From an uncultured Gammaproteobacteria bacterium (GTDB taxonomy: Bacteria; Patescibacteriota; Microgenomatia; CAYXHB01; CAZYTL01): 59,917 bases of DNA. A model generated the notes under the pieces. That model was not told where the DNA came from. It did no database searches and saw only the letters and a program-made list of their open reading frames with translations. How positions within the stretch are numbered: the first letter of the stretch is position 1; each line of letters opens with the position of its first letter. This document shows, one piece after another, positions 9,340 through 51,047 of the stretch. A program made the position numbers and the translations under genes. Where the stretch lies: NCBI GenBank assembly GCA_964650355.1, contig CAZYTL010000010.1, positions 1 to 59,917 on the forward strand. The letters run 5' to 3'.

Positions 9340-9390
9340 ATCTGTATTAATTTAATGTTTATGTGATACTAATTTAGTTATTATTCTACT

Positions 9391-9433
9391 CTCTTGGGCT
9401 CAGAAGAGGAAGGAGAGACAGCAGGAAAGAAGC
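9391..9433. repeat. Intergenic repeat module, partial copy A
   Basis: CTCTTGGGCTCAGAAGAGGAAGGAGAG matches the left end of copies B and C. It is followed by 7-nt-periodic sequence (CATGATT TACGATT TATGATT). Confidence 0.6.
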
Positions 9434-9774: not shown

Positions 9775-9803
9775 ATAATACGCCGGTGGTTTTGAAAGGT
9801 GAA
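9775..9803 (-). promoter_or_regulatory. Promoter-like TTCACC-N17-TATTAT, 8 nt upstream of the ATG at 9766 (minus strand)
   Basis: The reverse complement of 9767-9803 reads TTCACC tttcaaaaccaccggcg TATTAT aaatcata ATG. Confidence 0.35.
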
Positions 9804-9843
9804 GGATGGATGAGAGATTGGTGAAGGGTCAAGTGATAAACGG
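9801..9843. repeat. Intergenic repeat module, partial copy D
   Basis: GAAGGATGGATGAGAGATTGGTGAAGGGTCAAGTGA aligns with GAAGGATGGATGGGAGATTGGTGAAGTGTCAAAGTGA of copy B. Confidence 0.6.
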
Positions 9844-10710: not shown

Positions 10711-10826
10711 TCCCTTGGGCTCAGAAGAGGAAGGATGGATGGGAGATTGGTGAAGTGTCAAAGTGAGAAGCAGTTAGCATGGAACATAGAACATTGAGCA
10801 GGAAACAGAAAGCAGTAAATAGTAAA
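10711..10826. repeat. Intergenic repeat module, copy B (conserved ~60-nt head plus 8 heptamers)
   Basis: Head at 10711-10770. Heptamers at 10771-10826: CAGTTAG CATGGAA CATAGAA CATTGAG CAGGAAA CAGAAAG CAGTAAA TAGTAAA. Confidence 0.75.
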
Positions 10827-10890
10827 AAGTTAAACAAGGGATAAATTTATTATTCTTTTTCAGTTTGAGACTTGATTTTTGAGTAAAATT

Positions 10891-10920
10891 GGTGTACGCT
10901 TATAGCTAGAAGCGTACACC
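10891..10920 (-). terminator. Strong hairpin (11-bp stem GGTGTACGCTT/AAGCGTACACC) downstream of the DUF3800 gene
   Basis: On the minus strand the stem is followed by AATTTTACTCAAAAATC. It lies about 95 nt after the stop at 11015, and the U-tract is imperfect. Confidence 0.3.
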
Positions 10921-11014
10921 AATAACTTAGGTAGTGCCTTGGTGTTCCCTCCTCACAGAGGAGACATTTAAGCTAAGGAGGACCATTACTTAAGATGTCG
11001 CTTCTGCAAAGTAC

Positions 11015-11701
11015 TCAATCTGCGGATTGAGTTTTTTGATGCAATTTTTCCCAATAGTCATTAAATAATTCGGAGCCTTCGTTTATTAAATTGTTTTTTA
11101 AGATTCTAAAAAATTGATCACCAAGAGAACCTTGATTGTGATATCTGCCTAAAGCACCACAAACCCAATCTGCAATTTGAATATTTGCGTTAGTGGTGGA
11201 GTTTAACATTTCTATTTGCACAATTGTTCCTTTGGTCATTTGTGATAGTAGATTTGATGTCAGAATGCTTTTAAATTCTGACCTTTTTAGACCTTTAAGG
11301 TGCCTCTCATCGCAAAATACCCGGAAGTCTTTTTCTGTGATAGGGAGATAACTTTCTAAGGTTTTGGAGACGATATCTGTGTATAAGTGCCCAGTGCGGA
11401 CTTTGCCTTTATATCGATAGTTTAAAGGAATATTTTCTCTTCGGAGAAAACTGTATCGGATCCTAATGTCTAAGTTAGCGATCGTTCTTAATGTTCTTAA
11501 TCGCAAATCATCATTAATAGTCGGGTTGGAAAATTTTACTTCTGGTAAGTGCCGCAGTTTTCTGGGAAATTTTTCTGTTTTCCAAGACTTAAAACGTTTC
11601 TCGGTTCTTTTGGGGTCACCGGTGGTAAATGTTCCGACAAGAAAGAACTTTCCGTCTTTGTGTTTTGTAAATTGTCCGGTTTCGTCCAAGTAAATATTCA
11701 T
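11015..11701 (-). CDS. DUF3800-family protein, divergent paralogue of 5073..5783
   Basis: 228 aa. N-terminal IYLDETG, central RVFCDER and C-terminal NIQIADWVCG. The motif order matches the first DUF3800 ORF. The gene is AT-rich. Confidence 0.7.
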   Translation of the reverse strand: MNIYLDETGQFTKHKDGKFFLVGTFTTGDPKRTEKRFKSWKTEKFPRKLRHLPEVKFSNPTINDDLRLRTLRTIANLDIRIRYSFLRRENIPLNYRYKGKVRTGHLYTDIVSKTLESYLPITEKDFRVFCDERHLKGLKRSEFKSILTSNLLSQMTKGTIVQIEMLNSTTNANIQIADWVCGALGRYHNQGSLGDQFFRILKNNLINEGSELFNDYWEKLHQKTQSAD

Positions 11702-11740: not shown

Positions 11741-11889
11741 ATTGAGCTTGGAAGAGGAAGAATGGATGGGAGGTTGCTGAAGTGCCGAGGTGAGAAGCAG
11801 TTAGCATGGGAACATAGAACAGAGAGTATAGAACACGGAGCATAGAGCATAGAACATTGAGTAGGGAACAGGAAACAGAAAGCAGTAGT
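11741..11889. repeat. Intergenic repeat module, copy C (conserved head plus 13 heptamers)
   Basis: Head at 11741-11797 aligns with most positions of the copy B head by eye. Heptamers at 11798-11889 run CAGTTAG CATGGGA(A) CATAGAA CAGAGAG TATAGAA CACGGAG CATAGAG CATAGAA CATTGAG TAGGGAA CAGGAAA CAGAAAG CAGTAGT. Confidence 0.75.
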
Positions 11890-23245: not shown

Positions 23246-23485
23246 GGATAGGTGATCGGTAGTCAGTAATAGATTGTCAGTGAATAGTAGTTAGGAATCT
23301 TTGGCTGGGTTTGAGGATGAGGTGACGAATTGTCCCCTTTTTCTCTGCAGCGGGATGTGATGTAATGGGGGTTGCAGATAGAGGAGCGAATTGCTGGTTT
23401 AATTGGTTAAAGAGGCGTGTTATATATAAAGGTGGGCGGAGTGAAATAAACTTCTGTTAATTGAAGTGAAAAGCGGAGGTTGTTT

Positions 23486-24964
23486 ATGAAAAGAAATTGG
23501 TTGATGCTGGTCTATGGATTTAAAGATCGTGTTTGGGAAATGGCAATCGCTGGAGTGTTGCTAGTGGCCTTGGTGGTAAGAGTGTGGAATATTAATTATA
23601 ATTCTCCGTTTTCTGACGAGGCGATTTACATAGTGATCGGCAGGTTGGGTTTATTTCATCAGGACTGGGGAACTTATAATGCGGCCAACTGGATCCCGGG
23701 ACTGGTATATTTGTATCCGTCCTTAGCTGCGCTGGGATTTGTGACAGGAGGACTTTTGGGAGTGAGAATGATAAGTGTGGTTTTTGGGGTGTTGCTGGTT
23801 TGGGAAATTTATAGATTGTCTAAGTTGTTAGGAAAACGCTGTGGATTAGATGGCCGGATAAGTGGGTTGATCAGCAGCGGTTTGATCGCAGGGTCCACTA
23901 CAGCAATTTATGTAAGCAGATTGGCAACATATGATATGCCTAGTTATTGGTTGTTTTTTTCAGGGATTTATCAGTTAATAAAAACCGAAGAGTTACAGGA
24001 AATGAAGGCCGTGCGAAAAGGATATTGGGTTGCCGGTATGTGTTTATTGCTGGCAGTATTGGTGAAAATTTCGGTGGTGATTTACATACCAGGATTAGTG
24101 ATTTATAGCTGGATTAGGGCCGGCCGTTTAGGCAAGGACTATTGGTTTGCCTGGAGAAATTATTATTTGATTTGGCTAGGATTAGGCTTGGGATTGTTCG
24201 CGTTAGTTAATCGGGAAGCATTGATAACCTATGTGGGTTTGCAAGAGCAAAGAGAGAAGATTGCCAAAGAGATAATTTTGAGCCGGTTTTGGGAGTATGC
24301 TAAAAGTCTTTGCTGGTTCGCGTTATGGGGCACGCTGGGGTGGTGGAAGAAATACTGGAAGTTATGGTTGGGCTGGTTCGGGGGGGCAGGGTTGATCGTG
24401 GGGTTACATCTGTGGTTACAACGATTAGCAACTTTGGATAAGCACAGTCTGATTTCTGCTGTTTTTATAGCTATGATTGCAGGCATTGGTATAGAAATGA
24501 TGCAAGTGCGGTTCAGAAGTGTGGAGCGATTGAGGTTGTCCCGATGGTTACTGGGAGTTTGGTTGGTTGCTTACGGAGTGATTTCGGTTAAGGGGTTGGA
24601 GGTGTTTAATAATTTGTGGAGTAATACTTCTACAGCCGTCGAATATTTAAATAAGAGAGTTCAACCCACGGACAGAGTTTTGTCGGAGATTGGTCCGCCT
24701 GTAATTTTGGGTTTATATGATCAGGTGCCACCAGTGAGGGTGAATACTTTTGATTGGTTTGAGTATGAGGGTACGGTGGGAGACCAGGCCTATCAATGGG
24801 CCGTAGTAGACGGATATTTTAACTGGATTCAACTAGAAACATCTGCAGTAGTGAAGGAACCACTGCATGGAAGGATCCACGACTTGGTGGCTAATCGTTT
24901 ATCCAGAAACTATCGATTGGTTAATGAGCAGGAGGGATTCTCTACATATAAACGGGTTTATTGA
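23486..24964 (+). CDS. GT-C fold membrane glycosyltransferase (ArnT/PMT, GT39/83-like)
   Basis: The start is moved to the ATG at 23486, preceded by GGAGG. The first loop has NSPFSDEAIYIVIGR (DE motif). The protein is polytopic with a soluble C-terminal domain. Confidence 0.6.
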   Translation: MKRNWLMLVYGFKDRVWEMAIAGVLLVALVVRVWNINYNSPFSDEAIYIVIGRLGLFHQDWGTYNAANWIPGLVYLYPSLAALGFVTGGLLGVRMISVVFGVLLVWEIYRLSKLLGKRCGLDGRISGLISSGLIAGSTTAIYVSRLATYDMPSYWLFFSGIYQLIKTEELQEMKAVRKGYWVAGMCLLLAVLVKISVVIYIPGLVIYSWIRAGRLGKDYWFAWRNYYLIWLGLGLGLFALVNREALITYVGLQEQREKIAKEIILSRFWEYAKSLCWFALWGTLGWWKKYWKLWLGWFGGAGLIVGLHLWLQRLATLDKHSLISAVFIAMIAGIGIEMMQVRFRSVERLRLSRWLLGVWLVAYGVISVKGLEVFNNLWSNTSTAVEYLNKRVQPTDRVLSEIGPPVILGLYDQVPPVRVNTFDWFEYEGTVGDQAYQWAVVDGYFNWIQLETSAVVKEPLHGRIHDLVANRLSRNYRLVNEQEGFSTYKRVY

Positions 24965-25029
24965 TAAGTGAGGATAATTTGGTCATTCACCAGACTGAAA
25001 AAGTTTATAATCATAGTTTTAATTAATTT

Positions 25030-25938
25030 ATGAAAAAGAAAAGAAAATCAGATCAAAATTTGATGATGCAAAGGTTGAAGATGTTGAATTGGATGATCGT
25101 ACCTTTGATTGTTTTGTGGGTGACGATTAATTATGTGCTGGGATTGTTTAATCAGCCGCAGTGGAAGGAAGTAACCACTAATGTGCCTGCCAGAACAGTG
25201 CTGGGAAGTGAAACCGGCAATCAAGGGTCTGGTGATCAGGAATGGGTCTGGCAGGGGGGCGGATTAGTGACGATGTGGTTTGATGATGGTTGGTTATCTC
25301 AATTCAGGAGCGGATTTTCTCTGATGTATGATGCGGGATTTGCAGGGGCTTTGGCGGTACCAACTGATTTGATTGGCTACGAGGCATATATGACCTGGGC
25401 TCAAATCAGACAGATAGCTCATTTCGGATGGGAGATTGATTCTCATAGTAGAACCCACAACTGTGAACCGGGAAAGCTGTCGGATGCAGAGATTGCTGAA
25501 GAAGTGAGATCTTCAAGAAAAGTGTTGGCAGACTACGGATTTGAAGCTCACGATTATGTGCTTCCCTGCGGTTCTTTAAATGCAGAATTGGTCAAGGTGG
25601 TGAAGGAAGAATATTTATCGATGAGAACTTCGGACGGAGGAATTAATCCTTTACCAGTGAAAGATCCCTATGACATATATGCCAATGCGGTACAGGTGGG
25701 AACCTCTTTGGATACGGTTAACGGATGGTTGCAAGAGGCAAAGGCGAAGAAGGGCTGGGTGATTCTGATGTTTCATCAGATTGATGATTCGAAAACTCAA
25801 TACAGCGTGGATGTGGAAAAGTTTGATCAGATTATTCATTTGGTAAAAGAATCTGGTTTGCAAGTGGCACTGCCTGAACAAGCACTGGATATAAGTCCGG
25901 CTGATTTGATGGAGCAGACGGAAGGCAATAATCAGTAA
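25030..25938 (+). CDS. Polysaccharide deacetylase (NodB homology domain), membrane-anchored
   Basis: TMWFDDGW (TFDDG-type motif 1), HSRTH (motif 2) and an N-terminal TM helix. Confidence 0.85.
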   Translation: MKKKRKSDQNLMMQRLKMLNWMIVPLIVLWVTINYVLGLFNQPQWKEVTTNVPARTVLGSETGNQGSGDQEWVWQGGGLVTMWFDDGWLSQFRSGFSLMYDAGFAGALAVPTDLIGYEAYMTWAQIRQIAHFGWEIDSHSRTHNCEPGKLSDAEIAEEVRSSRKVLADYGFEAHDYVLPCGSLNAELVKVVKEEYLSMRTSDGGINPLPVKDPYDIYANAVQVGTSLDTVNGWLQEAKAKKGWVILMFHQIDDSKTQYSVDVEKFDQIIHLVKESGLQVALPEQALDISPADLMEQTEGNNQ

Positions 25939-25939
25939 A

Positions 25940-26058
25940 CAGCAATCAGTAAGCAGTGAACATAGAACATGGAACATAGAACAGCGAATATAGAACAGCG
26001 AACAATGAGCATAGAACATAAAACATAGAGCAGTGAACAATGAACAATAAATAGAAAC
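25940..26058. repeat. Degenerate heptanucleotide tandem array (17 units, consensus CATAGAA)
   Basis: CAGCAAT CAGTAAG CAGTGAA CATAGAA CATGGAA CATAGAA CAGCGAA TATAGAA CAGCGAA CAATGAG CATAGAA CATAAAA CATAGAG CAGTGAA CAATGAA CAATAAA TAGAAAC. The array lies between the deacetylase stop and the GT2 start. Confidence 0.8.
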
Positions 26059-26070
26059 TGAAAGAGGGTT

Positions 26071-27177
26071 ATGAAAAAGAAACGACGATTAGTGTCTTTC
26101 CGAGTGGCAATATTGATTCCGGCTTTTAACGAAGCGAAGGTAATTGGTGGGACAATTAAGGCTTTGAAGAAGTTTAAACCCAGTAGGGACATTTATGTGG
26201 TGGACGACGGGTCTAAGGATGGTACATCCCAAATTGCCAAGAAGTTATTGCCCAAGGGAAATGTGATTAGACTGACAAACGGAGGTAAGGTGAAAGCGAT
26301 TAACCAAGGAATCAAACAGTTTAGTTTATTAAAAAAGTACGATTATTTGATGCCGATCGATGCTGATACAGTGGTGGAAAAGGGATTTTTCCCAAGTGTG
26401 AGGAAAGTGTTGCAAGCTGATAAAGAAGAAATGATCGTGGCGGTAGTAGGAAGAGTGAGGGGAAGAGCGAATAATTGGCTGACGAGTTATCGAATGTGGG
26501 AATATGAGGTGAGTCAAGCAATTCATAAGCGAGCGCAGGAAGTAATGAGAGCGGTTTTGGTGTGTCCGGGTTGTTCTACCGTGTTTAGAACCAGATTGTG
26601 GTCTGATTTACAGATGCCAATAGGAACGCAGACAGAAGATATGGATCATACATGGCAGATTTATAGGCGAAATTTGGGTAAGATAGTCTATTGCGATCGA
26701 GCGGTGGTGACGACTCAGGATCCGAGGGCAATTCGAGATTATGTGAAGCAAATCAAGCGTTGGTATTTGGGATTTTGGCAGTGTTTAATCAAGCATGAGA
26801 TTCCCTGGGGAGGACAAACCTTGGACTTGGAGGTGACATTACAGGCAATTGAAGGTTTGTATTACGGATTGTTAGCATTGGTAACTGTGGTGGGTTGGCC
26901 GGTGGTGGTGGTGACGGGAAGATGGTGGATTCTGAGTGTGCCGTGGGCGATTGATTTAGGTTTGTTTTTGATACCAACGTTGATGTACGCGAGCTGGCGG
27001 TTGCGGACGCTGAGACTGTGGAAGTACTTTCCGATTTTTTACGGATTAAGGATTCTTAGTAGTCTGGTGTTTTTGTGGGCGTTCGTCAAGATTTGTTTAT
27101 GGGGTGACAGAAGATTGAGTTTGAGTTGGGATACGCAAAGATATTTAGTTGAGGCTCGTTCGATTTATAAAGTCTAG
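26071..27177 (+). CDS. Processive family-2 glycosyltransferase (NodC/PgaC/chitin-synthase-like)
   Basis: VAILIPAFNE, VVDDGSKDGT, PIDADT (DxD), TEDMD (ED) and QIKRW (QxxRW), plus C-terminal TM helices. Confidence 0.85.
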   Translation: MKKKRRLVSFRVAILIPAFNEAKVIGGTIKALKKFKPSRDIYVVDDGSKDGTSQIAKKLLPKGNVIRLTNGGKVKAINQGIKQFSLLKKYDYLMPIDADTVVEKGFFPSVRKVLQADKEEMIVAVVGRVRGRANNWLTSYRMWEYEVSQAIHKRAQEVMRAVLVCPGCSTVFRTRLWSDLQMPIGTQTEDMDHTWQIYRRNLGKIVYCDRAVVTTQDPRAIRDYVKQIKRWYLGFWQCLIKHEIPWGGQTLDLEVTLQAIEGLYYGLLALVTVVGWPVVVVTGRWWILSVPWAIDLGLFLIPTLMYASWRLRTLRLWKYFPIFYGLRILSSLVFLWAFVKICLWGDRRLSLSWDTQRYLVEARSIYKV

Positions 27178-27421
27178 TAATGACAATTATCCAGCATTAT
27201 TAGGAAAGGATTATTAGTTTAATAGGATTAAGTTAACCAATACAAATTATATGTATAGTACAATACCACCAATTAACTCTTTATCCTTGATTGTGCATTT
27301 GACTGTACTGGTGATTCACAAATTAAAGGTGATGTTGCGCTTATGATAAGTAGATCAGAGAAACAAAACCGAATCCGGGGTTGGTGATAGAGGTCTAGGT
27401 TTCAGGTATACTACAACGTAT

Positions 27422-28531
27422 GTGATAGGGAAGAAAGTTATAAATAAACTGATTGTCGGTATGAGCGTGGTGGTGAGCCTGGTGATGGTTTCTCTGGTGA
27501 TTAAGTATACAGTCAATCAGGGTCGGGGTGGGTGGTTGTTACCTGAGGGAAATTCAAGTACTTTGGATTGGTTAAGCACAGGTGACAAAGAGACAGAGAA
27601 AACTGAGTATCGCGGGTGGGTGGCTTGGTGGAATGAAGATGCAGCATTGATAAGTTTGGAAGACGCGAATGAAAGATTGAGTAGAGTTTTACCGGTGTGG
27701 TACGCAATTGATGAAGACGGCAGATGGAAAGAAACAGGAGCCCGGAGACAAGAGGAGATGAGACAGTTGTTTGAGGACAAAGACATGAAAGTAATGCCAA
27801 CAATCGGTAATGATTTTGACAAGCAGCGGGTAAGTAAATTGTTGAGTGACCAGAGGTTGCGGACGGCTTTTATTGAGCAAACTATTCGATTGGCTAAGGA
27901 AAAAGGATATGATGGATGGGACGTAGATTGGGAGCAGATAGATACAGCTGACAGTCAAAGATTCGCGGAATTTGTTGCTGAATGGACGAAAGCTTTGCAT
28001 GCTGAGGGCTTGGAGACTTCGGTTGACGTGCATGCACTGACCGGGAGTAAATCTGATTGGGTAGAAGCTCTGGGGCATGATTACCAGTTACTAGCCAAGT
28101 CGGCCGATTGGGTGCAAGTGATGGCCTATGATTATCATTTTTCTGAGTCTGCTCCCGGGCCGATAACGCCCTTGAATTGGTTGAGGGAGGTGATTGAGTA
28201 CAGTATAAATTATATTCCCGAGGAGAAATTAGTGTTGGGTTTGCCGGTTTACGGATATGACTGGTCCGGTAACTCCGGGGAATCAATTCAATATTATGAG
28301 GCAATGAGAAGACTTAACGGTTACGGTGGAGAGTGGGAGAGGGATAAGACATCGGGAGCATTAAAAGGTGAGTACGAAGCTGGAGGCCAAAATCATGTTA
28401 TTTGGTTTGAAGATGCGGAGAGTGTAGTACAAAAGGTGAAGTTAGCAGAAAGGTATGGAATTAACAAGTTCGTGTTTTGGAGGTTAGGAGACGAGGATGA
28501 GAGGATGTGGGAGATGTTGCCGGAGCGTTAA
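27422..28531 (+). CDS. Glycoside hydrolase family 18 (chitinase-like), membrane-anchored
   Basis: GYDGWDVDWEQ matches the DxxDxDxE catalytic motif. GTG start and an N-terminal TM helix. Confidence 0.8.
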   Translation: MIGKKVINKLIVGMSVVVSLVMVSLVIKYTVNQGRGGWLLPEGNSSTLDWLSTGDKETEKTEYRGWVAWWNEDAALISLEDANERLSRVLPVWYAIDEDGRWKETGARRQEEMRQLFEDKDMKVMPTIGNDFDKQRVSKLLSDQRLRTAFIEQTIRLAKEKGYDGWDVDWEQIDTADSQRFAEFVAEWTKALHAEGLETSVDVHALTGSKSDWVEALGHDYQLLAKSADWVQVMAYDYHFSESAPGPITPLNWLREVIEYSINYIPEEKLVLGLPVYGYDWSGNSGESIQYYEAMRRLNGYGGEWERDKTSGALKGEYEAGGQNHVIWFEDAESVVQKVKLAERYGINKFVFWRLGDEDERMWEMLPER

Positions 28532-31596: not shown

Positions 31597-32610
31597 TTAT
31601 TTGAGGTATTTTTCGACGTTTTGGTTGTGTTCTTCCAGGGTTTTGGAGTAATGCATCCGGCCTTGGTTATCGGTGAGGTAGTACCAGTAGTCTGTTTCTG
31701 TGGGATCAAGAGCGGCTTTAAGGGCGGTAAGGCTAGGGTTGGAAATGGGAGCGGGAGGCAGGCCGGGATGGGTGTAGGTGTTGTAAGAAGAATTAATATC
31801 TTTATCTGCGACGGTGGGGGTGGGCCACCAGTCATTAATAGCTGTTAGCTTATAGCTGTTAGCTGCTAGCTGGTTGGTCACTTTAGCGTATTGAAGAGTG
31901 GCGTCGGCCTGTAATGGCCAGTTGTTTTGGTAGCGCTTGATAAGAATACCGGCAACGATGGGGTAATCTGCAGGCGTGGCAGTTTCCCGATCAAGGATGG
32001 AAGCGAGGATGACGGCTTGTTGGAAAGTGAAGGGGTGAGGTACGGTGGTGGCAGAAGCAAGTAAGGGTTGAGTTTTGGTCGTAAAGGTGTCAGTGAGGAG
32101 TCTGGTGATTTGAGCGGCTGTGGTGGTTTCTGGAATCAGGTAAGTATCAGGAAAGAGATGGCCTTCAAGATCCTGGGTAAGTTGGAGAAATTCTGATTGA
32201 GAGAAGGTGGCCGAGGGGAGATTTTGAGCCAGCTCCTGAACGATTTGTTCCCGGCGCCAGCCTTCGATAAAGGTGACCCAGATTCCCTGAAAGCCTCCCC
32301 TACTGAGGTGATCAATGATTTGGGGGATGGACCAGGATGTGGAAAGTCTGAATTGGCCGGCTCTGAGATTGGTTTGCGACTGGTGAAGTTTAGTGTAAAA
32401 TCTAAAAGCTAAGGGATTTTTAATCAACTTTTCTTGTTTGAGAAGGTCGGCTACTTTGGTGGCAGATGAACCTTTGGGGATGATGACGGAGTGAAAAGTT
32501 TCGGTGTTAGAAACAGGTTGGAGGGCATTTTGGTACCAGAGATAAGTTGAGAGAATACCAACTAAGATGACTGTGGTAATGATGGCGAGAATTTTAAGAG
32601 AAGTACGCAT
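31597..32610 (-). CDS. mltG: Endolytic murein transglycosylase MltG (YceG family)
   Basis: N-terminal TM helix, LEGHLFPDTYLIP, ILASILDRET and NSSYNTYTHPGLPPAPISNP. ATG at 32610; the alternative start is 32631. Confidence 0.85.
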   Translation of the reverse strand: MRTSLKILAIITTVILVGILSTYLWYQNALQPVSNTETFHSVIIPKGSSATKVADLLKQEKLIKNPLAFRFYTKLHQSQTNLRAGQFRLSTSWSIPQIIDHLSRGGFQGIWVTFIEGWRREQIVQELAQNLPSATFSQSEFLQLTQDLEGHLFPDTYLIPETTTAAQITRLLTDTFTTKTQPLLASATTVPHPFTFQQAVILASILDRETATPADYPIVAGILIKRYQNNWPLQADATLQYAKVTNQLAANSYKLTAINDWWPTPTVADKDINSSYNTYTHPGLPPAPISNPSLTALKAALDPTETDYWYYLTDNQGRMHYSKTLEEHNQNVEKYLK

Positions 32611-39876: not shown

Positions 39877-41586
39877 TCAATAGTGGACTAATCGGTAGAG
39901 TTGGAATCCCCAGGGGAAAGTCCATTGCTGGTCGATTTTGGCCCAACCGAAGAGAGCGATCTCGGCTTTGGGATGGCTGATGGGGTTGCAATCCATGTCT
40001 CGACCTTCATATGGGGGTCGATTCTCGCAGATGACAAAGAGTTGATTAGTGATGGTTTGGGGAGCATTTTGAGGGTCGATTTCGACTAAAGGAGCATGCC
40101 AGAGTTCAAAGAAGTAGCGGTACCCTTCGTCATAGTTGTTTTTGGCAATCAGAGCCAGGTTGAACGGCTGACCTTGGGAAGCCTGAAGGATGGTGCGGTC
40201 AATTTCTTGGGTGTGTTGCAGGGTTTGCGGCGGCTGAGATTTAAGAGGAGATGACTGGAGGTTGAGATAGATGAGAGGAGAAATTAGTAAGCCGGCAATT
40301 AATAATTGACTTACTTGCCCATTAGCTGGTAATCGCGAAGTTGCCGAGCGGGTGATTTGCCAGATGACCCAGCCGGTAAGCAGAAAAGGAGCAGGAAAAA
40401 GGAATCCGAAATAGTGATCGTAAATGTGTTGTTTGTAAAGGGAAAGGCCAAGGAGGCCGAAGAGAAGCCAGGTGAGGAGAAGGAGGAGTGATAGGTTTCG
40501 ACGTTTCCTCCAAAGGGGCCCTTTCGGGGAAGTTTCGACCTTTCGAAGTTGGGATTTCTGAATTTGTTGAGAATTTAGGATTAGCGATTTGAGATTTTTG
40601 TGAATGAGATTAGTGACGAGTGTCAGTCCGGTTAAGGTGAGGATTATTTTGGTGATTAAAGTGTTATGAGTTGCAACGAGAGTACTATAGATTTGTTCCA
40701 GAATGGGGTAAAGTTTGGCAAATCCCCGGTAAAATTTAAGGTTAACTGTGGTTTGACGATGGGTAAAAAAGGCGGTGATGGCTTTAAGGTTGAGCCAGTC
40801 GTGACGAAGGTCAAATAATACTAGCGGGGACATGAGAAAGAGGAAAATCAAAAGGCTAAATGCAGAATGTTTAATAAATTGGCGCAAGGTGGTGACATTG
40901 TGATTTCTTTTTGAGGTTAAGCGGATTTTAAGTAAAGCAGCCAGCCAAAAGACGGCAATGGTAGGAATGAGTAACAGACCCAGGTAATGGGACTGGATAA
41001 CGAAAGCCAGAGAGATGCCAAGGAGGAGGAACCAAAGGAGAGCTGTTGGCTGTTGGCTTTTAGCTTTTAGAGAGTAATATTGGTATATTTGGTGTGTGGC
41101 CCAGATGGTGAGTAGGGCAAAAAAGGGCATGATGTTGGGATTCCAGGAAGAGCGGGAATAGATGATCACGGTCGGTGAAATGGCGTAGAGGGCGGCGGCG
41201 GTAAGCCCGGCAAGAGGGTGAAACCAGGTACGGCCCAGCCACCAGATAAGGATGATAGTGGCGAGGGAGAAGAGGGCGATCATAACGGCAGGCCCTACAG
41301 GTGACAATCCGGAGACGATCATGGCCGGGGCCATAAGATAGTAGTAAAGCGGGCCCAGGTACATATGGCCGGCTTCGGTGGTAACAGATGTCATGGGGCC
41401 GATGAAGACGGGATCAAGATCGACAATTAATCTTCTGACGACGCGGGCATCGCGACCTTCGTCGCCGAGAAAGGTGAGGTATTGGTCAATGTGATAGAGA
41501 CGAAGGAAAGCAGCGACGACGAGAATGACAATGAGGAAAAGTGATTCTGATTGATGGTTTTTGGCCCAGATAATGAGTTTGTTCAT
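39877..41586 (-). CDS. GT-C fold membrane glycosyltransferase (ArnT-like)
   Basis: 569 aa and polytopic. The first loop has LTFLGDEGRDARVV. Confidence 0.65.
   Translation of the reverse strand: MNKLIIWAKNHQSESLFLIVILVVAAFLRLYHIDQYLTFLGDEGRDARVVRRLIVDLDPVFIGPMTSVTTEAGHMYLGPLYYYLMAPAMIVSGLSPVGPAVMIALFSLATIILIWWLGRTWFHPLAGLTAAALYAISPTVIIYSRSSWNPNIMPFFALLTIWATHQIYQYYSLKAKSQQPTALLWFLLLGISLAFVIQSHYLGLLLIPTIAVFWLAALLKIRLTSKRNHNVTTLRQFIKHSAFSLLIFLFLMSPLVLFDLRHDWLNLKAITAFFTHRQTTVNLKFYRGFAKLYPILEQIYSTLVATHNTLITKIILTLTGLTLVTNLIHKNLKSLILNSQQIQKSQLRKVETSPKGPLWRKRRNLSLLLLLTWLLFGLLGLSLYKQHIYDHYFGFLFPAPFLLTGWVIWQITRSATSRLPANGQVSQLLIAGLLISPLIYLNLQSSPLKSQPPQTLQHTQEIDRTILQASQGQPFNLALIAKNNYDEGYRYFFELWHAPLVEIDPQNAPQTITNQLFVICENRPPYEGRDMDCNPISHPKAEIALFGWAKIDQQWTFPWGFQLYRLVHY
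40495..40539. repeat. GC-rich palindromic mini-element flanked by GTTTCGAC direct repeats inside a GT-C gene
   Basis: GTTTCGAC-gtttcctCCAAAGGGGCCCTTTCGGGGaa-GTTTCGAC. It encodes ..VETSPKGPLWRKRRN.. on the minus strand. Confidence 0.7.
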
Positions 41587-50351: not shown

Positions 50352-51047
50352 ATGCAGATTGATATATTGACGATTTTTCCGGAAATGTTTAAGGATGTTT
50401 TAGAAGAAACGATTCTGAAACGGGCGCAAGAAAAAGGCTTGGTCGAGATTAACGCGCATAATTTGCGGGATTGGACTACGGATAAACATAAGACGACGGA
50501 TAACCGGCCATTCGGAGGAGGGGCTGGGATGGTGATGAAAGTAGAACCGATATACAGAGCGATTCAGGATTTAAGATTCAAGAATCAAGAGCTAAGTAAG
50601 ACGGTTCTGCTGACTCCTCAGGGAAAGGTTTTTAAGCAATCAATAGCGGAGGAGTTAGCGAAGTTAGAGCAAGTGATTTTGATTTGTGGAAGGTACGAAG
50701 GTGTGGATGAACGGGTAAGGGAATTGGTTGTAGATGAGGAAATTTCTATCGGTGATTATGTGTTGTCAGGAGGAGAAATTCCGGCGATGGTGGTGATTGA
50801 TACCCTGGTGAGGTTGATGCCTGGGGTGTTAGGGAATGAAGAATCGCTGCAAAGCGAATCTTTTAAAGAAGGATCACTGGATTATCCTCAATATACTCAA
50901 CCAAGGGAGTTTCAAGGATTGAAAGTGCCTGAAATACTACTAAGTGGCCACCATGAAGAAATTGCCAAGTGGAGGAAAGAACAGGCTTTACAAAAGACGA
51001 AGGAAAAAAGACCAGAATTAATAAAAGATGGTAAGAAGGGTAGATAA
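50352..51047 (+). CDS. trmD: tRNA (guanine37-N1)-methyltransferase
   Basis: [38 protein letters not shown] and [10 protein letters not shown]. Confidence 0.95.

What the first reader, a model, noticed from the sequence alone, without database searches (positions are those of the whole stretch)
25940..26058. Seventeen-unit degenerate heptanucleotide array (CATAGAA) between the deacetylase and synthase genes
Seen in the sequence: the whole 132-nt spacer between the NodB-like stop (25938) and the GT2 start (26071) is essentially a strict 7-nt-period array with pattern C-A-N-N-G-A-A. The same heptamer family forms the tails of the repeat copies at 10771-10826 and 11798-11889, but here it appears without the conserved head. 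The units are degenerate, so simple slipped-strand phase variation is unlikely.

On an mRNA the array would present UAG/UGG/GCG triplets spaced by 4 nt. UAG-N4-UAG-N4-UAG is the geometry reported for the B. subtilis HutP antiterminator, so a multimeric RNA- or DNA-binding protein site is one hypothesis. No hutP-like gene is visible in the window.

The antisense ORFs across the array (25651..26040 and 25932..26192, with CSLFY-type repeats) are artefacts of the periodicity.
Basis: partly seen in the sequence, partly recalled or inferred. Interest (0 to 1): 0.55.

Follow-up and report, generated by a model that had tools for sequence, protein, structure and literature searches.

The report
Seven-base repeat array between two genes
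The spacer between a sugar-deacetylase gene and a sugar-polymerase gene of an uncultured ultra-small (CPR) bacterium is filled by 19 imperfect copies of a 7-base unit. It is one of more than 100 such arrays in this genome, a known but unexplained kind of bacterial simple repeat, and not a HutP-type regulatory RNA site.

Summary
There are 19 in-register 7-nt units (consensus C-A-n-n-R-A-A) at 25926-26058. They fill the 132-nt gap between the Polysacc_deac_1 and GT2 genes, and unit 2 supplies the deacetylase stop codon.

The array is not a special site. The genome (Microgenomatia, CPR) holds about 127 period-7 arrays, against 20 or fewer for any other period. Eighty-seven per cent lie on the contigs with extreme GC skew. 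Their A-rich strand follows the G-rich DNA strand (66:23), not the direction of transcription (21:17).

Six other versions of this operon have an overlapping junction or one of at most 12 nt. A relative with 83% GT2 identity carries the array too, differing by a 7-nt gap and by substitutions. Paralogous sites differ by multi-unit blocks.

The genome has no HutP gene and no cold-shock-domain gene. The spacer has no terminator, promoter consensus, RNA fold or Rfam match.

Best reading: a slippage-born heptanucleotide simple-sequence array (Mrazek-type LSSR, like cyanobacterial STRR) inserted into a once-coupled gene junction and tolerated as an unstructured spacer. Earlier follow-ups in this scan reached the same classification on other contigs of this genome. 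New here are the strand polarity, the link to skew, the operon comparison and the spread across the class.

The parts
25926..26058 (+). Heptanucleotide array, 19 in-register degenerate units (C-A-n-n-R-A-A); 50% A, 21% G over the 132-nt spacer
25936..25938 (+). TAA stop of the deacetylase ORF, lying inside array unit 2 (CAGTAAA); the last four codons of the gene are array sequence
26038..26070 (+). Last three array units (26038-26058) plus the purine-rich Shine-Dalgarno-like run GAAAGAGGG (26060-26068). The last two units and this run lie in a 37-nt stretch that is nearly identical in the 83%-identity relative, although third codon positions are only 57% identical
25030..25938 (+). Polysaccharide deacetylase (PF01522) gene upstream of the array
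26071..27177 (+). GT2 processive glycosyltransferase (PF13641/PF00535/PF13632) gene downstream of the array
10771..10830 (+). Second array of the same unit family (tail of a local repeat copy)
11806..11889 (+). Third array of the same unit family (tail of the second local repeat copy)
23246..23300 (+). Weaker 7/14-nt periodic purine-rich stretch starting at the stop of the ABC-2 permease gene (seen by eye only)
31836..31876 (-). In-frame heptamer array (AGCTAAC type) inside the YceG/MltG gene
41036..41077 (-). In-frame heptamer array inside a PMT/STT3-like glycosyltransferase gene
50561..50596 (+). In-frame heptamer array (GATTCAA type) inside the trmD gene

Best explanation
[quoted passage not shown] It arose in this lineage inside a deacetylase/GT2 gene junction that is compact or overlapping everywhere else. 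It grew and turns over by duplication and loss of 7-nt units or multiples of them, through slipped-strand mispairing or unequal exchange (inferred), followed by point mutation. It is tolerated because it does no harm. It supplies the upstream stop codon, contains 14 stops over all three frames, has no RNA structure, and leaves the conserved ribosome-binding region of the GT2 gene intact. Its likely effect is passive (inferred): it replaces translational coupling by independent initiation on an unstructured A-rich leader. It is one of more than 100 such arrays in the genome. These are concentrated where GC skew is extreme and are oriented with the G-rich DNA strand, which points to a DNA-level, replication-linked origin rather than an RNA signal.
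For: The period-7 excess is genome-wide: 314 of 1180 TRF rows; 84 windows against at most 8 for non-harmonic periods; 127 arrays against at most 20. Orientation follows the G-rich strand (32/33 long arrays; 66:23, p = 6e-6; each near-perfect unit family in one orientation only, for example AAGATTC 8:0). It does not follow transcription (21:17). There are 110 arrays on high-skew contigs and 17 on low-skew contigs of equal size; density rises from about 1 to about 13 per 100 kb with |skew|. Six other versions of the operon have a junction of -11 to +12 nt: the own-genome paralogue, L001 and L049-L052. The relative L048 (GT2 83% aa identity, third codon positions 57%) has the array at the same place, with one 7-nt gap and substitutions. 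Paralogous sites on C30 and C5 share flanks, but their arrays are 78 nt and about 170 nt and differ by multi-unit blocks. Inside the array, neighbouring units are more alike than in shuffled order (2.11 vs 2.59, P = 0.02), and 14-nt sub-duplications are visible. There is no promoter or terminator consensus, the MFE is -9.3 kcal/mol with z = 0.34, and there is no Rfam match. Arrays also sit in frame inside loops of real genes, as expected of a mutational process filtered by selection. Arrays in co-directional spacers tend to abut the upstream stop (31 closer to the stop, 16 closer to the start).
Against: Variation is not spread evenly over the unit: columns 2 and 6 are invariant, column 1 is C in 17 of 19 units and column 5 is always a purine, while columns 3 and 4 vary freely. 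The periodic pattern has survived a divergence at which synonymous sites are near saturation. Both facts could reflect selection rather than concerted evolution. The same unit families recur at many loci, and in another genome (G005) as ordered composite modules. Purely local slippage does not predict this. Extreme skew alone is not sufficient: the order-level relative G002 has the same skew and no arrays in 200 kb. Polarity is not universal: G005 shows no polarity on one replichore. No population data could be obtained, so ongoing 7-nt length variation is not shown.
Confidence: 0.68

Rival explanations
1. The arrays are functional DNA-level multi-site platforms or polar signals, read on one strand by a lineage-specific protein. 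Candidates are a nucleoid, replication, repair or segregation factor that steps every 7 nt. This array would be one such site that happens to lie between two genes.
For: Strong strand polarity relative to the G-rich strand, independent of gene direction. Near-invariant columns C1, A2, R5, A6. Retention of the pattern in a relative with saturated synonymous sites. Period-7 arrays are abundant in other families of the class.
Against: Unit families are very diverse within one genome (CATGGAA, GATTCAA, CAGCTAA, CAGTAAT, AAAAAGC and others), so one sequence-specific reader is unlikely. The order-level relative G002 lacks arrays altogether in 200 kb. Polarity is absent on one replichore of G005. No candidate protein was identified; cold-shock-domain proteins, which bind one heptamer each (PMC4679880), are absent.
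Confidence: 0.12
2. The array acts at the RNA level within a deacetylase-GT2 transcript. It could be an unstructured A-rich leader or standby site that sets independent translation of GT2. It could also be the target of a repeat-reading RNA-binding protein (HutP/TRAP-like).
For: Here the A-rich strand is the sense strand. The RNA is unstructured. It ends right at a Shine-Dalgarno-like run, and the last 37 nt are nearly identical in the relative. TAACTGA heptamer repeats upstream of start codons have been proposed as translational signals (PMC4679880). STRR between hupS and hupL have been proposed to affect transcript stability or coupling (PMC2670836).
Against: As a class the arrays are sense and antisense in equal measure (21:17) and lie nearer to stops than to starts. 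There is no HutP and no CSD gene. There is no terminator to antiterminate. The XAG triplets are not in one register. Six orthologous or paralogous operons work without any spacer. The HutP-specific version is rated at about 0.01.
Confidence: 0.08
3. The array is a copy or remnant of a dispersed, mobile or recombination-spread intergenic module built of heptamer sub-arrays (comparable to BOX, REP/BIME or MITE-like elements), not a locally born repeat.
For: In G005 the same ordered sets of sub-arrays, including inverted pairs, recur in many neighbouring intergenic gaps. In this window, head-plus-heptamer-tail repeats flank a DUF3800 gene. The same unit families recur at 14 or more loci.
Against: This array has no conserved head, no inverted partner and no shared flank with other copies. 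BLAST against the genome finds only short low-complexity matches. Its flanks are the orthologous genes themselves.
Confidence: 0.08
4. The array is a contingency locus: changes in unit number switch or tune expression of the glycan genes (phase variation).
For: It lies in a surface-glycan operon, a common setting for phase variation. Unit number differs between the two species and between paralogous sites.
Against: Units are only 72% alike, with no run of identical neighbours. The array lies between a stop and a ribosome-binding site, so ±7 nt shifts no frame and alters no promoter spacing. The Logan contig from the run SRR14802573 is identical over the aligned 191 nt (25900-26090) that span the spacer.
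Confidence: 0.03

Closest known systems
Heptanucleotide long simple sequence repeats (LSSR) of prokaryotes (Mrazek, Guo and Shah 2007, as summarised in PMC4679880; see also PMC4692102)
   Same: Tandem 7-nt units. Arrays far longer than chance. Heptamers are the dominant repeat class of the genome. Enriched about four-fold in intergenic DNA: 59 of 127 arrays lie between genes, against an 11% non-coding genome. Slippage is the proposed origin.
   Different: The host is a Microgenomatia (CPR) bacterium, and I found no paper describing such arrays in CPR. Units are strongly degenerate. Arrays are strand-polar with an extreme GC skew and concentrated in the high-skew half of the genome. Many sit in frame inside genes.
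STRR (short tandemly repeated repetitive) sequences of filamentous cyanobacteria, for example between hupS and hupL (PMC2670836; Mazel et al. 1990 from my own knowledge)
   Same: 7-bp tandem units lying between two co-oriented, probably co-transcribed genes. Many copies per genome in several unit families. Function unknown.
   Different: Different unit sequences and a different phylum. The hupS-hupL STRR can form a hairpin, whereas this array is single-orientation and unstructured.
TAACTGA heptamer direct repeats of Beggiatoaceae, cyanobacteria and Bacteroidetes (MacGregor 2015, PMC4679880)
   Same: Intergenic heptamer direct repeats, mixed with other heptamers in some genomes. The first units here (CAGTAAn) are within one or two mismatches of a rotation of the reverse complement of TAACTGA. 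AACTGAT-type arrays also occur in this genome.
   Different: In the Beggiatoa-type genome the repeats lie in forward orientation just upstream of start codons and replace the Shine-Dalgarno sequence. Here orientation ignores transcription, arrays lie nearer to stops, and a Shine-Dalgarno-like run is present.
HutP antiterminator binding site of Bacillus subtilis (PMC2425495)
   Same: Triplets repeated with a 7-nt step on a single-stranded RNA.
   Different: HutP needs two sets of three XAG separated by 12-17 nt around a GC-rich terminator stem, plus the HutP hexamer. None of these is present here.

Membership tests
Heptanucleotide LSSR (Mrazek type) | Head-to-tail tandem copies of a 5-11 nt unit | tested here: met
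   TRF period 7, 10.3 copies; 19 phased units
Heptanucleotide LSSR (Mrazek type) | Array longer than expected by chance in its own genome | tested here: met
   0 windows in a Markov-1 simulated genome against 13 real ones; period 7 is ten-fold above other periods
Heptanucleotide LSSR (Mrazek type) | Unit-number change (multiples of 7 nt) between homologous sites, the signature of slippage | tested here: met
   7-nt gap against the relative L048. Paralogous sites on C30 and C5 differ by multi-unit blocks between alignable flanks.
Cyanobacterial STRR | 7-bp tandem units in intergenic DNA, many per genome | tested here: met
Cyanobacterial STRR | Belongs to the STRR unit families of heterocystous cyanobacteria | tested here: not met
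   Units here are CAnnGAA. The host's best matches are Gottesmanbacteria and Daviesbacteria, and its class-level kin have 0.5-1.8 Mb genomes. The STRR unit sequences were recalled from memory, not fetched.
TAACTGA repeat system (MacGregor 2015) | Unit TAACTGA in forward orientation just upstream of start codons, in place of a Shine-Dalgarno sequence | tested here: not met
   Different unit; a Shine-Dalgarno-like run is present; class-wide sense:antisense is 21:17; arrays lie nearer to stops
HutP binding site | Two clusters of three XAG at 7-nt spacing flanking a GC-rich terminator stem | tested here: not met
   No terminator-like site. MFE -9.3 kcal/mol, z = 0.34. TAG occurs in 6 of 19 units, never in three consecutive units; CAG occurs in another register (PMC2425495)
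HutP binding site | A HutP gene in the genome | tested here: not met
   PF09021: no match in the 94%-complete genome; the control finds B. subtilis
Phase-variable contingency SSR | Near-identical units placed in an ORF or promoter spacer, so that unit number changes expression | tested here: not met
   72% matches; the array lies between a stop and a ribosome-binding site; no promoter consensus

The most novel reading that the evidence does not exclude
Period-7 arrays are a class-wide, partly strand-polar intergenic element system of Microgenomatia. On this reading they are tied to the unusual, strongly strand-asymmetric replication of these genomes, for example as stepping, loading or pausing sites for a lineage-specific ssDNA-handling protein, or as footprints of such a machine. 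The near-invariant C1/A2/R5/A6 columns would then be its recognition code. The array studied here would be one functional site rather than junk.
Probability: 0.1. Interest if true: 0.7.

Novelty: new member of a known kind. Interest (0 to 1): 0.36.

Why it matters
Taken alone, the array is an ordinary example of a known but unexplained repeat class, and this scan had already found that class on other contigs of the same genome.

What adds value is the context. In a CPR bacterium with one of the most extreme G/C strand disparities known, heptamer arrays follow the G-rich strand, pile up where skew is highest, invade compact operon junctions and protein loops, and recur across families of the class.

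That gives a tractable comparative system for two old questions: why bacteria favour 7-nt repeats, and whether they arise from replication mechanics. The system consists of array-rich genomes (G000, G005, G195) and an array-free, equally skewed relative (G002).

For annotation, such arrays create false antisense ORFs, define stop codons and break assemblies: contig L048 starts inside the array.

Tried and rejected
- **HutP:** family absent from the genome.
- **Cold-shock-domain proteins as heptamer readers:** absent.
- **Loss of mismatch repair as the cause:** MutS is present; MutL was not checked.
- **Known RNA family:** none in 25700-26300 even at E <= 1, apart from one chance snoRNA hit outside the array.
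- **Promoter or terminator consensus:** none in the spacer.
- **RNA structure:** none beyond shuffles.
- **Phage similarity:** none.
- **Strain variants:**
  - An exact-flank scan of metagenome contigs found nothing.
  - The only other contig carrying both genes (Logan, SRR14802573) is identical over the aligned 191 nt (25900-26090) spanning the spacer.
- **Close deacetylase orthologue, to recover the 5' half of the relative's array:** none above 44% identity.
- **"Extreme GC skew is sufficient for arrays":** rejected, because G002 has skews of 0.4-0.5 and no period-7 arrays in 200 kb.
- **"Arrays need extreme skew":** rejected, because G005 has ordinary bidirectional skew and 113 arrays.
- **"The genome is a two-organism bin":** rejected, because the tRNA sets of high- and low-skew contigs share no anticodon and G002 shows the same two skew regimes.
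- **Shared head or flank for this array:** none found.
- **Apparent opposite polarity of CAnnGAA hits in G195:**
  - Its unit CATTGAA, read on the other strand as TTCAATG, resembles the TTCAAGA (GATTCAA) family that lies on the G-rich strand in G000.
  - G023 remains discordant at weak skew.

Full report
**1. The observation**

The window sequence and Tandem Repeats Finder show a period-7 array between the stop of a 302-aa ORF (25030-25938) and the ATG of a 368-aa ORF (26071-27177). Pfam assigns these to Polysacc_deac_1 and to family-2 glycosyltransferases.

Phasing the sequence shows that the register begins at 25926, inside the deacetylase gene, and runs for 19 units to 26058. The TAA stop at 25936-25938 lies in unit 2.

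Column make-up is C 17/19, A 19/19, variable, variable, purine 19/19, A 19/19, A 13/19. The 132-nt spacer is 50% A and holds 14 stop codons spread over all three frames. It is followed directly by GAAAGAGGG and the ATG.

They overlap the Pfam-supported genes on the other strand.

**2. Is it more than chance, and is it special?**

A first-order Markov simulation of the whole genome gives no period-7 window at a threshold where the real genome gives 13. The assembly has 1.82 Mb, 37 contigs and 44% GC; the window is contig C10.

At three other thresholds, period 7 outnumbers every non-harmonic period about ten-fold. With a 28-nt window at 75% self-match or better there are 127 period-7 arrays, against at most 20 for any other period. 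TRF gives 314 period-7 rows out of 1180.

So the array is real, but it is one of more than a hundred. The pattern (CAnnGAA)x4 with up to 3 mismatches hits the genome 56 times at about 14 loci, against 2 hits for the reversed control.

Other arrays use other units: GATTCAA, CAGCTAA, CAGTAAT, GATAGAA/TACAGAA and AAAAAGC. They often drift from one unit type to another along their length.

**3. The organism**

The best GT2 matches in species genomes are Candidatus Gottesmanbacteria and Daviesbacteria, at 46-48% identity. Class-level kin have 0.5-1.8 Mb genomes. The host is therefore a Microgenomatia (CPR/Patescibacteria) bacterium with no same-family genome in the held set.

**4. Where the arrays lie and how they point**

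- **Intergenic share.** Fifty-nine of the 127 arrays are intergenic, although only 11% of the genome is non-coding by my crude ORF map.
- **Inside genes.** Sixty-four arrays lie inside ORFs, many in the middle of long ones. In this window they sit in frame in YceG/MltG, in a PMT-like glycosyltransferase and in TrmD.
- **Direction of transcription.** In co-directional spacers the A-rich strand is the sense strand 21 times and the antisense strand 17 times.
- **GC skew.**
  - For the 33 longest strand-asymmetric arrays, the purine-rich strand is the locally G-rich strand in 32.
  - For all arrays with |AT skew| of at least 0.2, the A-rich strand is the G-rich strand in 66 against 23 (p = 6e-6).
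  - Among near-perfect triple units, every unit family occurs in one orientation only, for example AAGATTC 8:0. This holds even though most such units have one G and one C.
- **Position in the spacer.** Arrays in co-directional spacers tend to abut or overlap the upstream stop: 31 are closer to the stop and 16 closer to the start.

**5. The skew itself**

The contigs fall into two classes. Twenty-three contigs (889 kb, including this window at +0.31) have |GC skew| of 0.28-0.47. Fourteen contigs (935 kb) have at most about 0.23, mostly near 0.1.

In the first class, third-codon-position skew is +0.61 for genes on the G-rich strand and -0.57 for genes on the other strand, with AT skew near zero. 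The bias is therefore mutational and independent of transcription.

The tRNA sets of the two classes share no anticodon and together make one set. The order-level relative G002 shows the same two regimes. This is one genome, not a mixed bin.

Extreme G/C strand disparity without AT disparity has been published for Microgenomates of the order UBA1400 (PMC7143001).

Of the 127 arrays, 110 are on high-skew contigs. Density climbs from about 1 to about 13 per 100 kb with |skew| (Spearman 0.64 over 92 bins, which are not independent).

**6. History of this particular junction**

The four-gene block (a 494-aa PMT_2-like protein, the deacetylase, GT2 and GH18) is conserved. Six other versions of it have the following deacetylase-GT2 junctions:

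| Version | Junction (nt) |
|---|---|
| L001, Gottesmanbacteria (deacetylase 35% identical) | +8 |
| L049 | -4 |
| L050 | +12 |
| L051 | -4 |
| L052 | -4 |
| Paralogue on C4 of this genome | -11 |

Only this lineage has a 132-nt spacer, so the array is an insertion into a formerly coupled junction.

A JGI metagenome contig (L048) carries a GT2 that is 83% identical in protein. It is 78.7% identical in DNA and 57% identical at third codon positions. The contig starts inside a heptamer array at the same place.

Its last 37 nt before the ATG are nearly identical to the window. Further up, the two arrays differ by a 7-nt gap and by substitutions, mainly in the variable columns. The array therefore predates that split and changes in unit steps.

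Two pairs of paralogous sites in this genome tell the same story. One pair is C30 8038 and C5 4988; the other is C30 8881 and C36 405. Each pair has alignable flanks around arrays of very different length. The first pair has 78 nt against about 170 nt, including a duplicated nine-unit block.

Inside the focal array, neighbouring units are more alike than in shuffled order (2.11 against 2.59 differences, P = 0.02). Two 14-nt sub-duplications are also visible.

**7. Tests of a regulatory reading**

- **Signals and folds.** There is no sigma-70-like promoter and no intrinsic terminator in the spacer. The 156-nt RNA folds no better than shuffles (-9.3 kcal/mol, z = 0.34). Rfam has no family there even at E <= 1.
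- **HutP.**
  - HutP recognises two sets of three XAG at a 7-nt step, separated by 12-17 nt around a GC-rich terminator stem (PMC2425495).
  - Here there is no stem. TAG occurs in 6 of 19 units, never in three consecutive units, and CAG sits in another register.
  - The genome, 94% complete, has no HutP homologue.
- **Cold-shock proteins.** These bind one heptamer each and were proposed as readers of TAACTGA repeats (PMC4679880). They are absent too.
- **Mismatch repair.** MutS is present, so loss of mismatch repair is not the explanation.

**8. The phenomenon across the class**

Of 400 sampled Microgenomatia genomes, 147 (148 of 401 counting G000 itself) have at least one hit to the four-unit CAnnGAA pattern. 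Several have 18-62 hits. The reversed control pattern is abundant in other genomes, which shows further unit families.

- **G195.** Its CATTGAA arrays keep one orientation per contig, and always the same orientation relative to skew, on all 12 contigs fetched.
- **G005.**
  - This complete 786-kb genome from another family had no CAnnGAA hit, yet holds 113 period-7 arrays against at most 15 for other non-harmonic periods. Ninety-seven of them are intergenic.
  - Ninety-three lie on one replichore and 20 on the other.
  - Many form ordered composite modules, with inverted sub-arrays repeated in neighbouring gaps.
- **G002.** This genome, of the same order as the window's genome, has no period-7 array in 200 kb despite equally extreme skew.

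Arrays are thus widespread but patchy. Skew is neither necessary nor sufficient for them.

**9. Comparison with what is known**

Heptanucleotide units are the most abundant class of long simple sequence repeats in prokaryotes, and polymerase slippage is the proposed cause (Mrazek et al. 2007, as summarised in PMC4679880; see also PMC4692102).

Cyanobacterial STRR are 7-bp repeats of unknown function. They are found, for example, between hupS and hupL (PMC2670836). TAACTGA repeats occur in Beggiatoaceae, cyanobacteria and Bacteroidetes (PMC4679880).

A full-text search found no paper that mentions heptamer repeats in CPR bacteria.

Earlier follow-ups in this scan had already classed heptamer arrays on other contigs of this genome as Mrazek-type repeats in a new lineage. 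I reach the same class independently. I add the strand polarity, the link to skew, the orthologue and paralogue history of one junction, and the survey across the class.

**10. Verdict**

- **Shown:**
  - the array and its statistics;
  - its status as an insertion;
  - its retention and unit-step change in a relative;
  - orientation with the DNA strand rather than with transcription;
  - the absence of HutP, CSD, terminator and fold.
- **Inferred:**
  - origin and turnover by slippage or unequal exchange;
  - a passive role as an unstructured spacer that replaces translational coupling.
- **Not excluded:** a DNA-level protein-binding role, suggested by the near-invariant columns and the polarity.

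Noticed in passing
whole genome G000 (window = C10, GC skew +0.31 throughout): Two skew regimes in one genome. Twenty-three contigs (889 kb) have |GC skew| of 0.28-0.47, with GC3 skew about ±0.6 and no AT skew. Fourteen contigs (935 kb) have at most about 0.23, mostly near 0.1. The tRNA sets of the two classes are complementary. The order-level relative G002 shows the same bimodality. Extreme G/C disparity is published for UBA1400 Microgenomates (PMC7143001), but I did not see a two-compartment pattern described there.
   Followed up: partly
window 31836-31876 (-), 41036-41077 (-), 50561-50596 (+): Short heptamer arrays sit in frame inside real genes: YceG/MltG, a PMT/STT3-like glycosyltransferase and TrmD. 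They add low-complexity peptide stretches such as NQLAANSYKLTAI.
   Followed up: partly
window 10908-11005 (+) and 11015-11701 (-): An Rfam DUF3800-V RNA (56.8 bits, above the gathering score) lies next to a DUF3800-like ORF. The pair is bracketed by two same-orientation repeat copies (about 10724-10830 and 11751-11889) whose tails are CAnnGAA heptamer arrays. Partial copies of the repeat head lie at 9384-9414 and 9801-9832.
   Followed up: partly
window 23246-23300: A weaker purine-rich stretch with 7/14-nt periodicity begins right at the stop of the ABC-2 permease gene. This is the same placement (abutting an upstream stop) as the focal array. Seen by eye only.
   Followed up: no
G005 (complete 786-kb Microgenomatia genome; loci L063-L070, L073-L104), for example 626.4-645 kb: The genome holds 113 period-7 arrays, 93 of them on one replichore. 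Many are ordered composite modules (a GATTTAA array, then an AAAAGTC array, then its inverted GACTTTT array, then an AACTTTT/GAATTTT array) that recur in successive intergenic gaps. They look like dispersed hairpin-capable elements rather than independent slippage products.
   Followed up: partly
G000 C30:8038-8115 against C5:4988-5160, and C30:8881-9072 against C36:405-492: Paralogous intergenic sites with alignable flanks (about 80-85% identity) hold heptamer arrays of very different length, including a duplicated nine-unit block. This is a natural record of array expansion.
   Followed up: partly
window 23480-28531; L001, L049-L052; G000 C4:36267-39650: A conserved four-gene block (PMT_2-like 494-aa protein, Polysacc_deac_1, GT2 synthase, GH18) recurs in several Microgenomates-type contigs and twice in this genome. 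This suggests a chitin/PNAG-like surface-glycan module typical of the group.
   Followed up: partly
L048 (JGI 3300056879 contig, 1194 nt): The contig of the closest relative begins inside the heptamer array, so the array probably broke the assembly there. Arrays of this kind may fragment CPR metagenome assemblies systematically.
   Followed up: no
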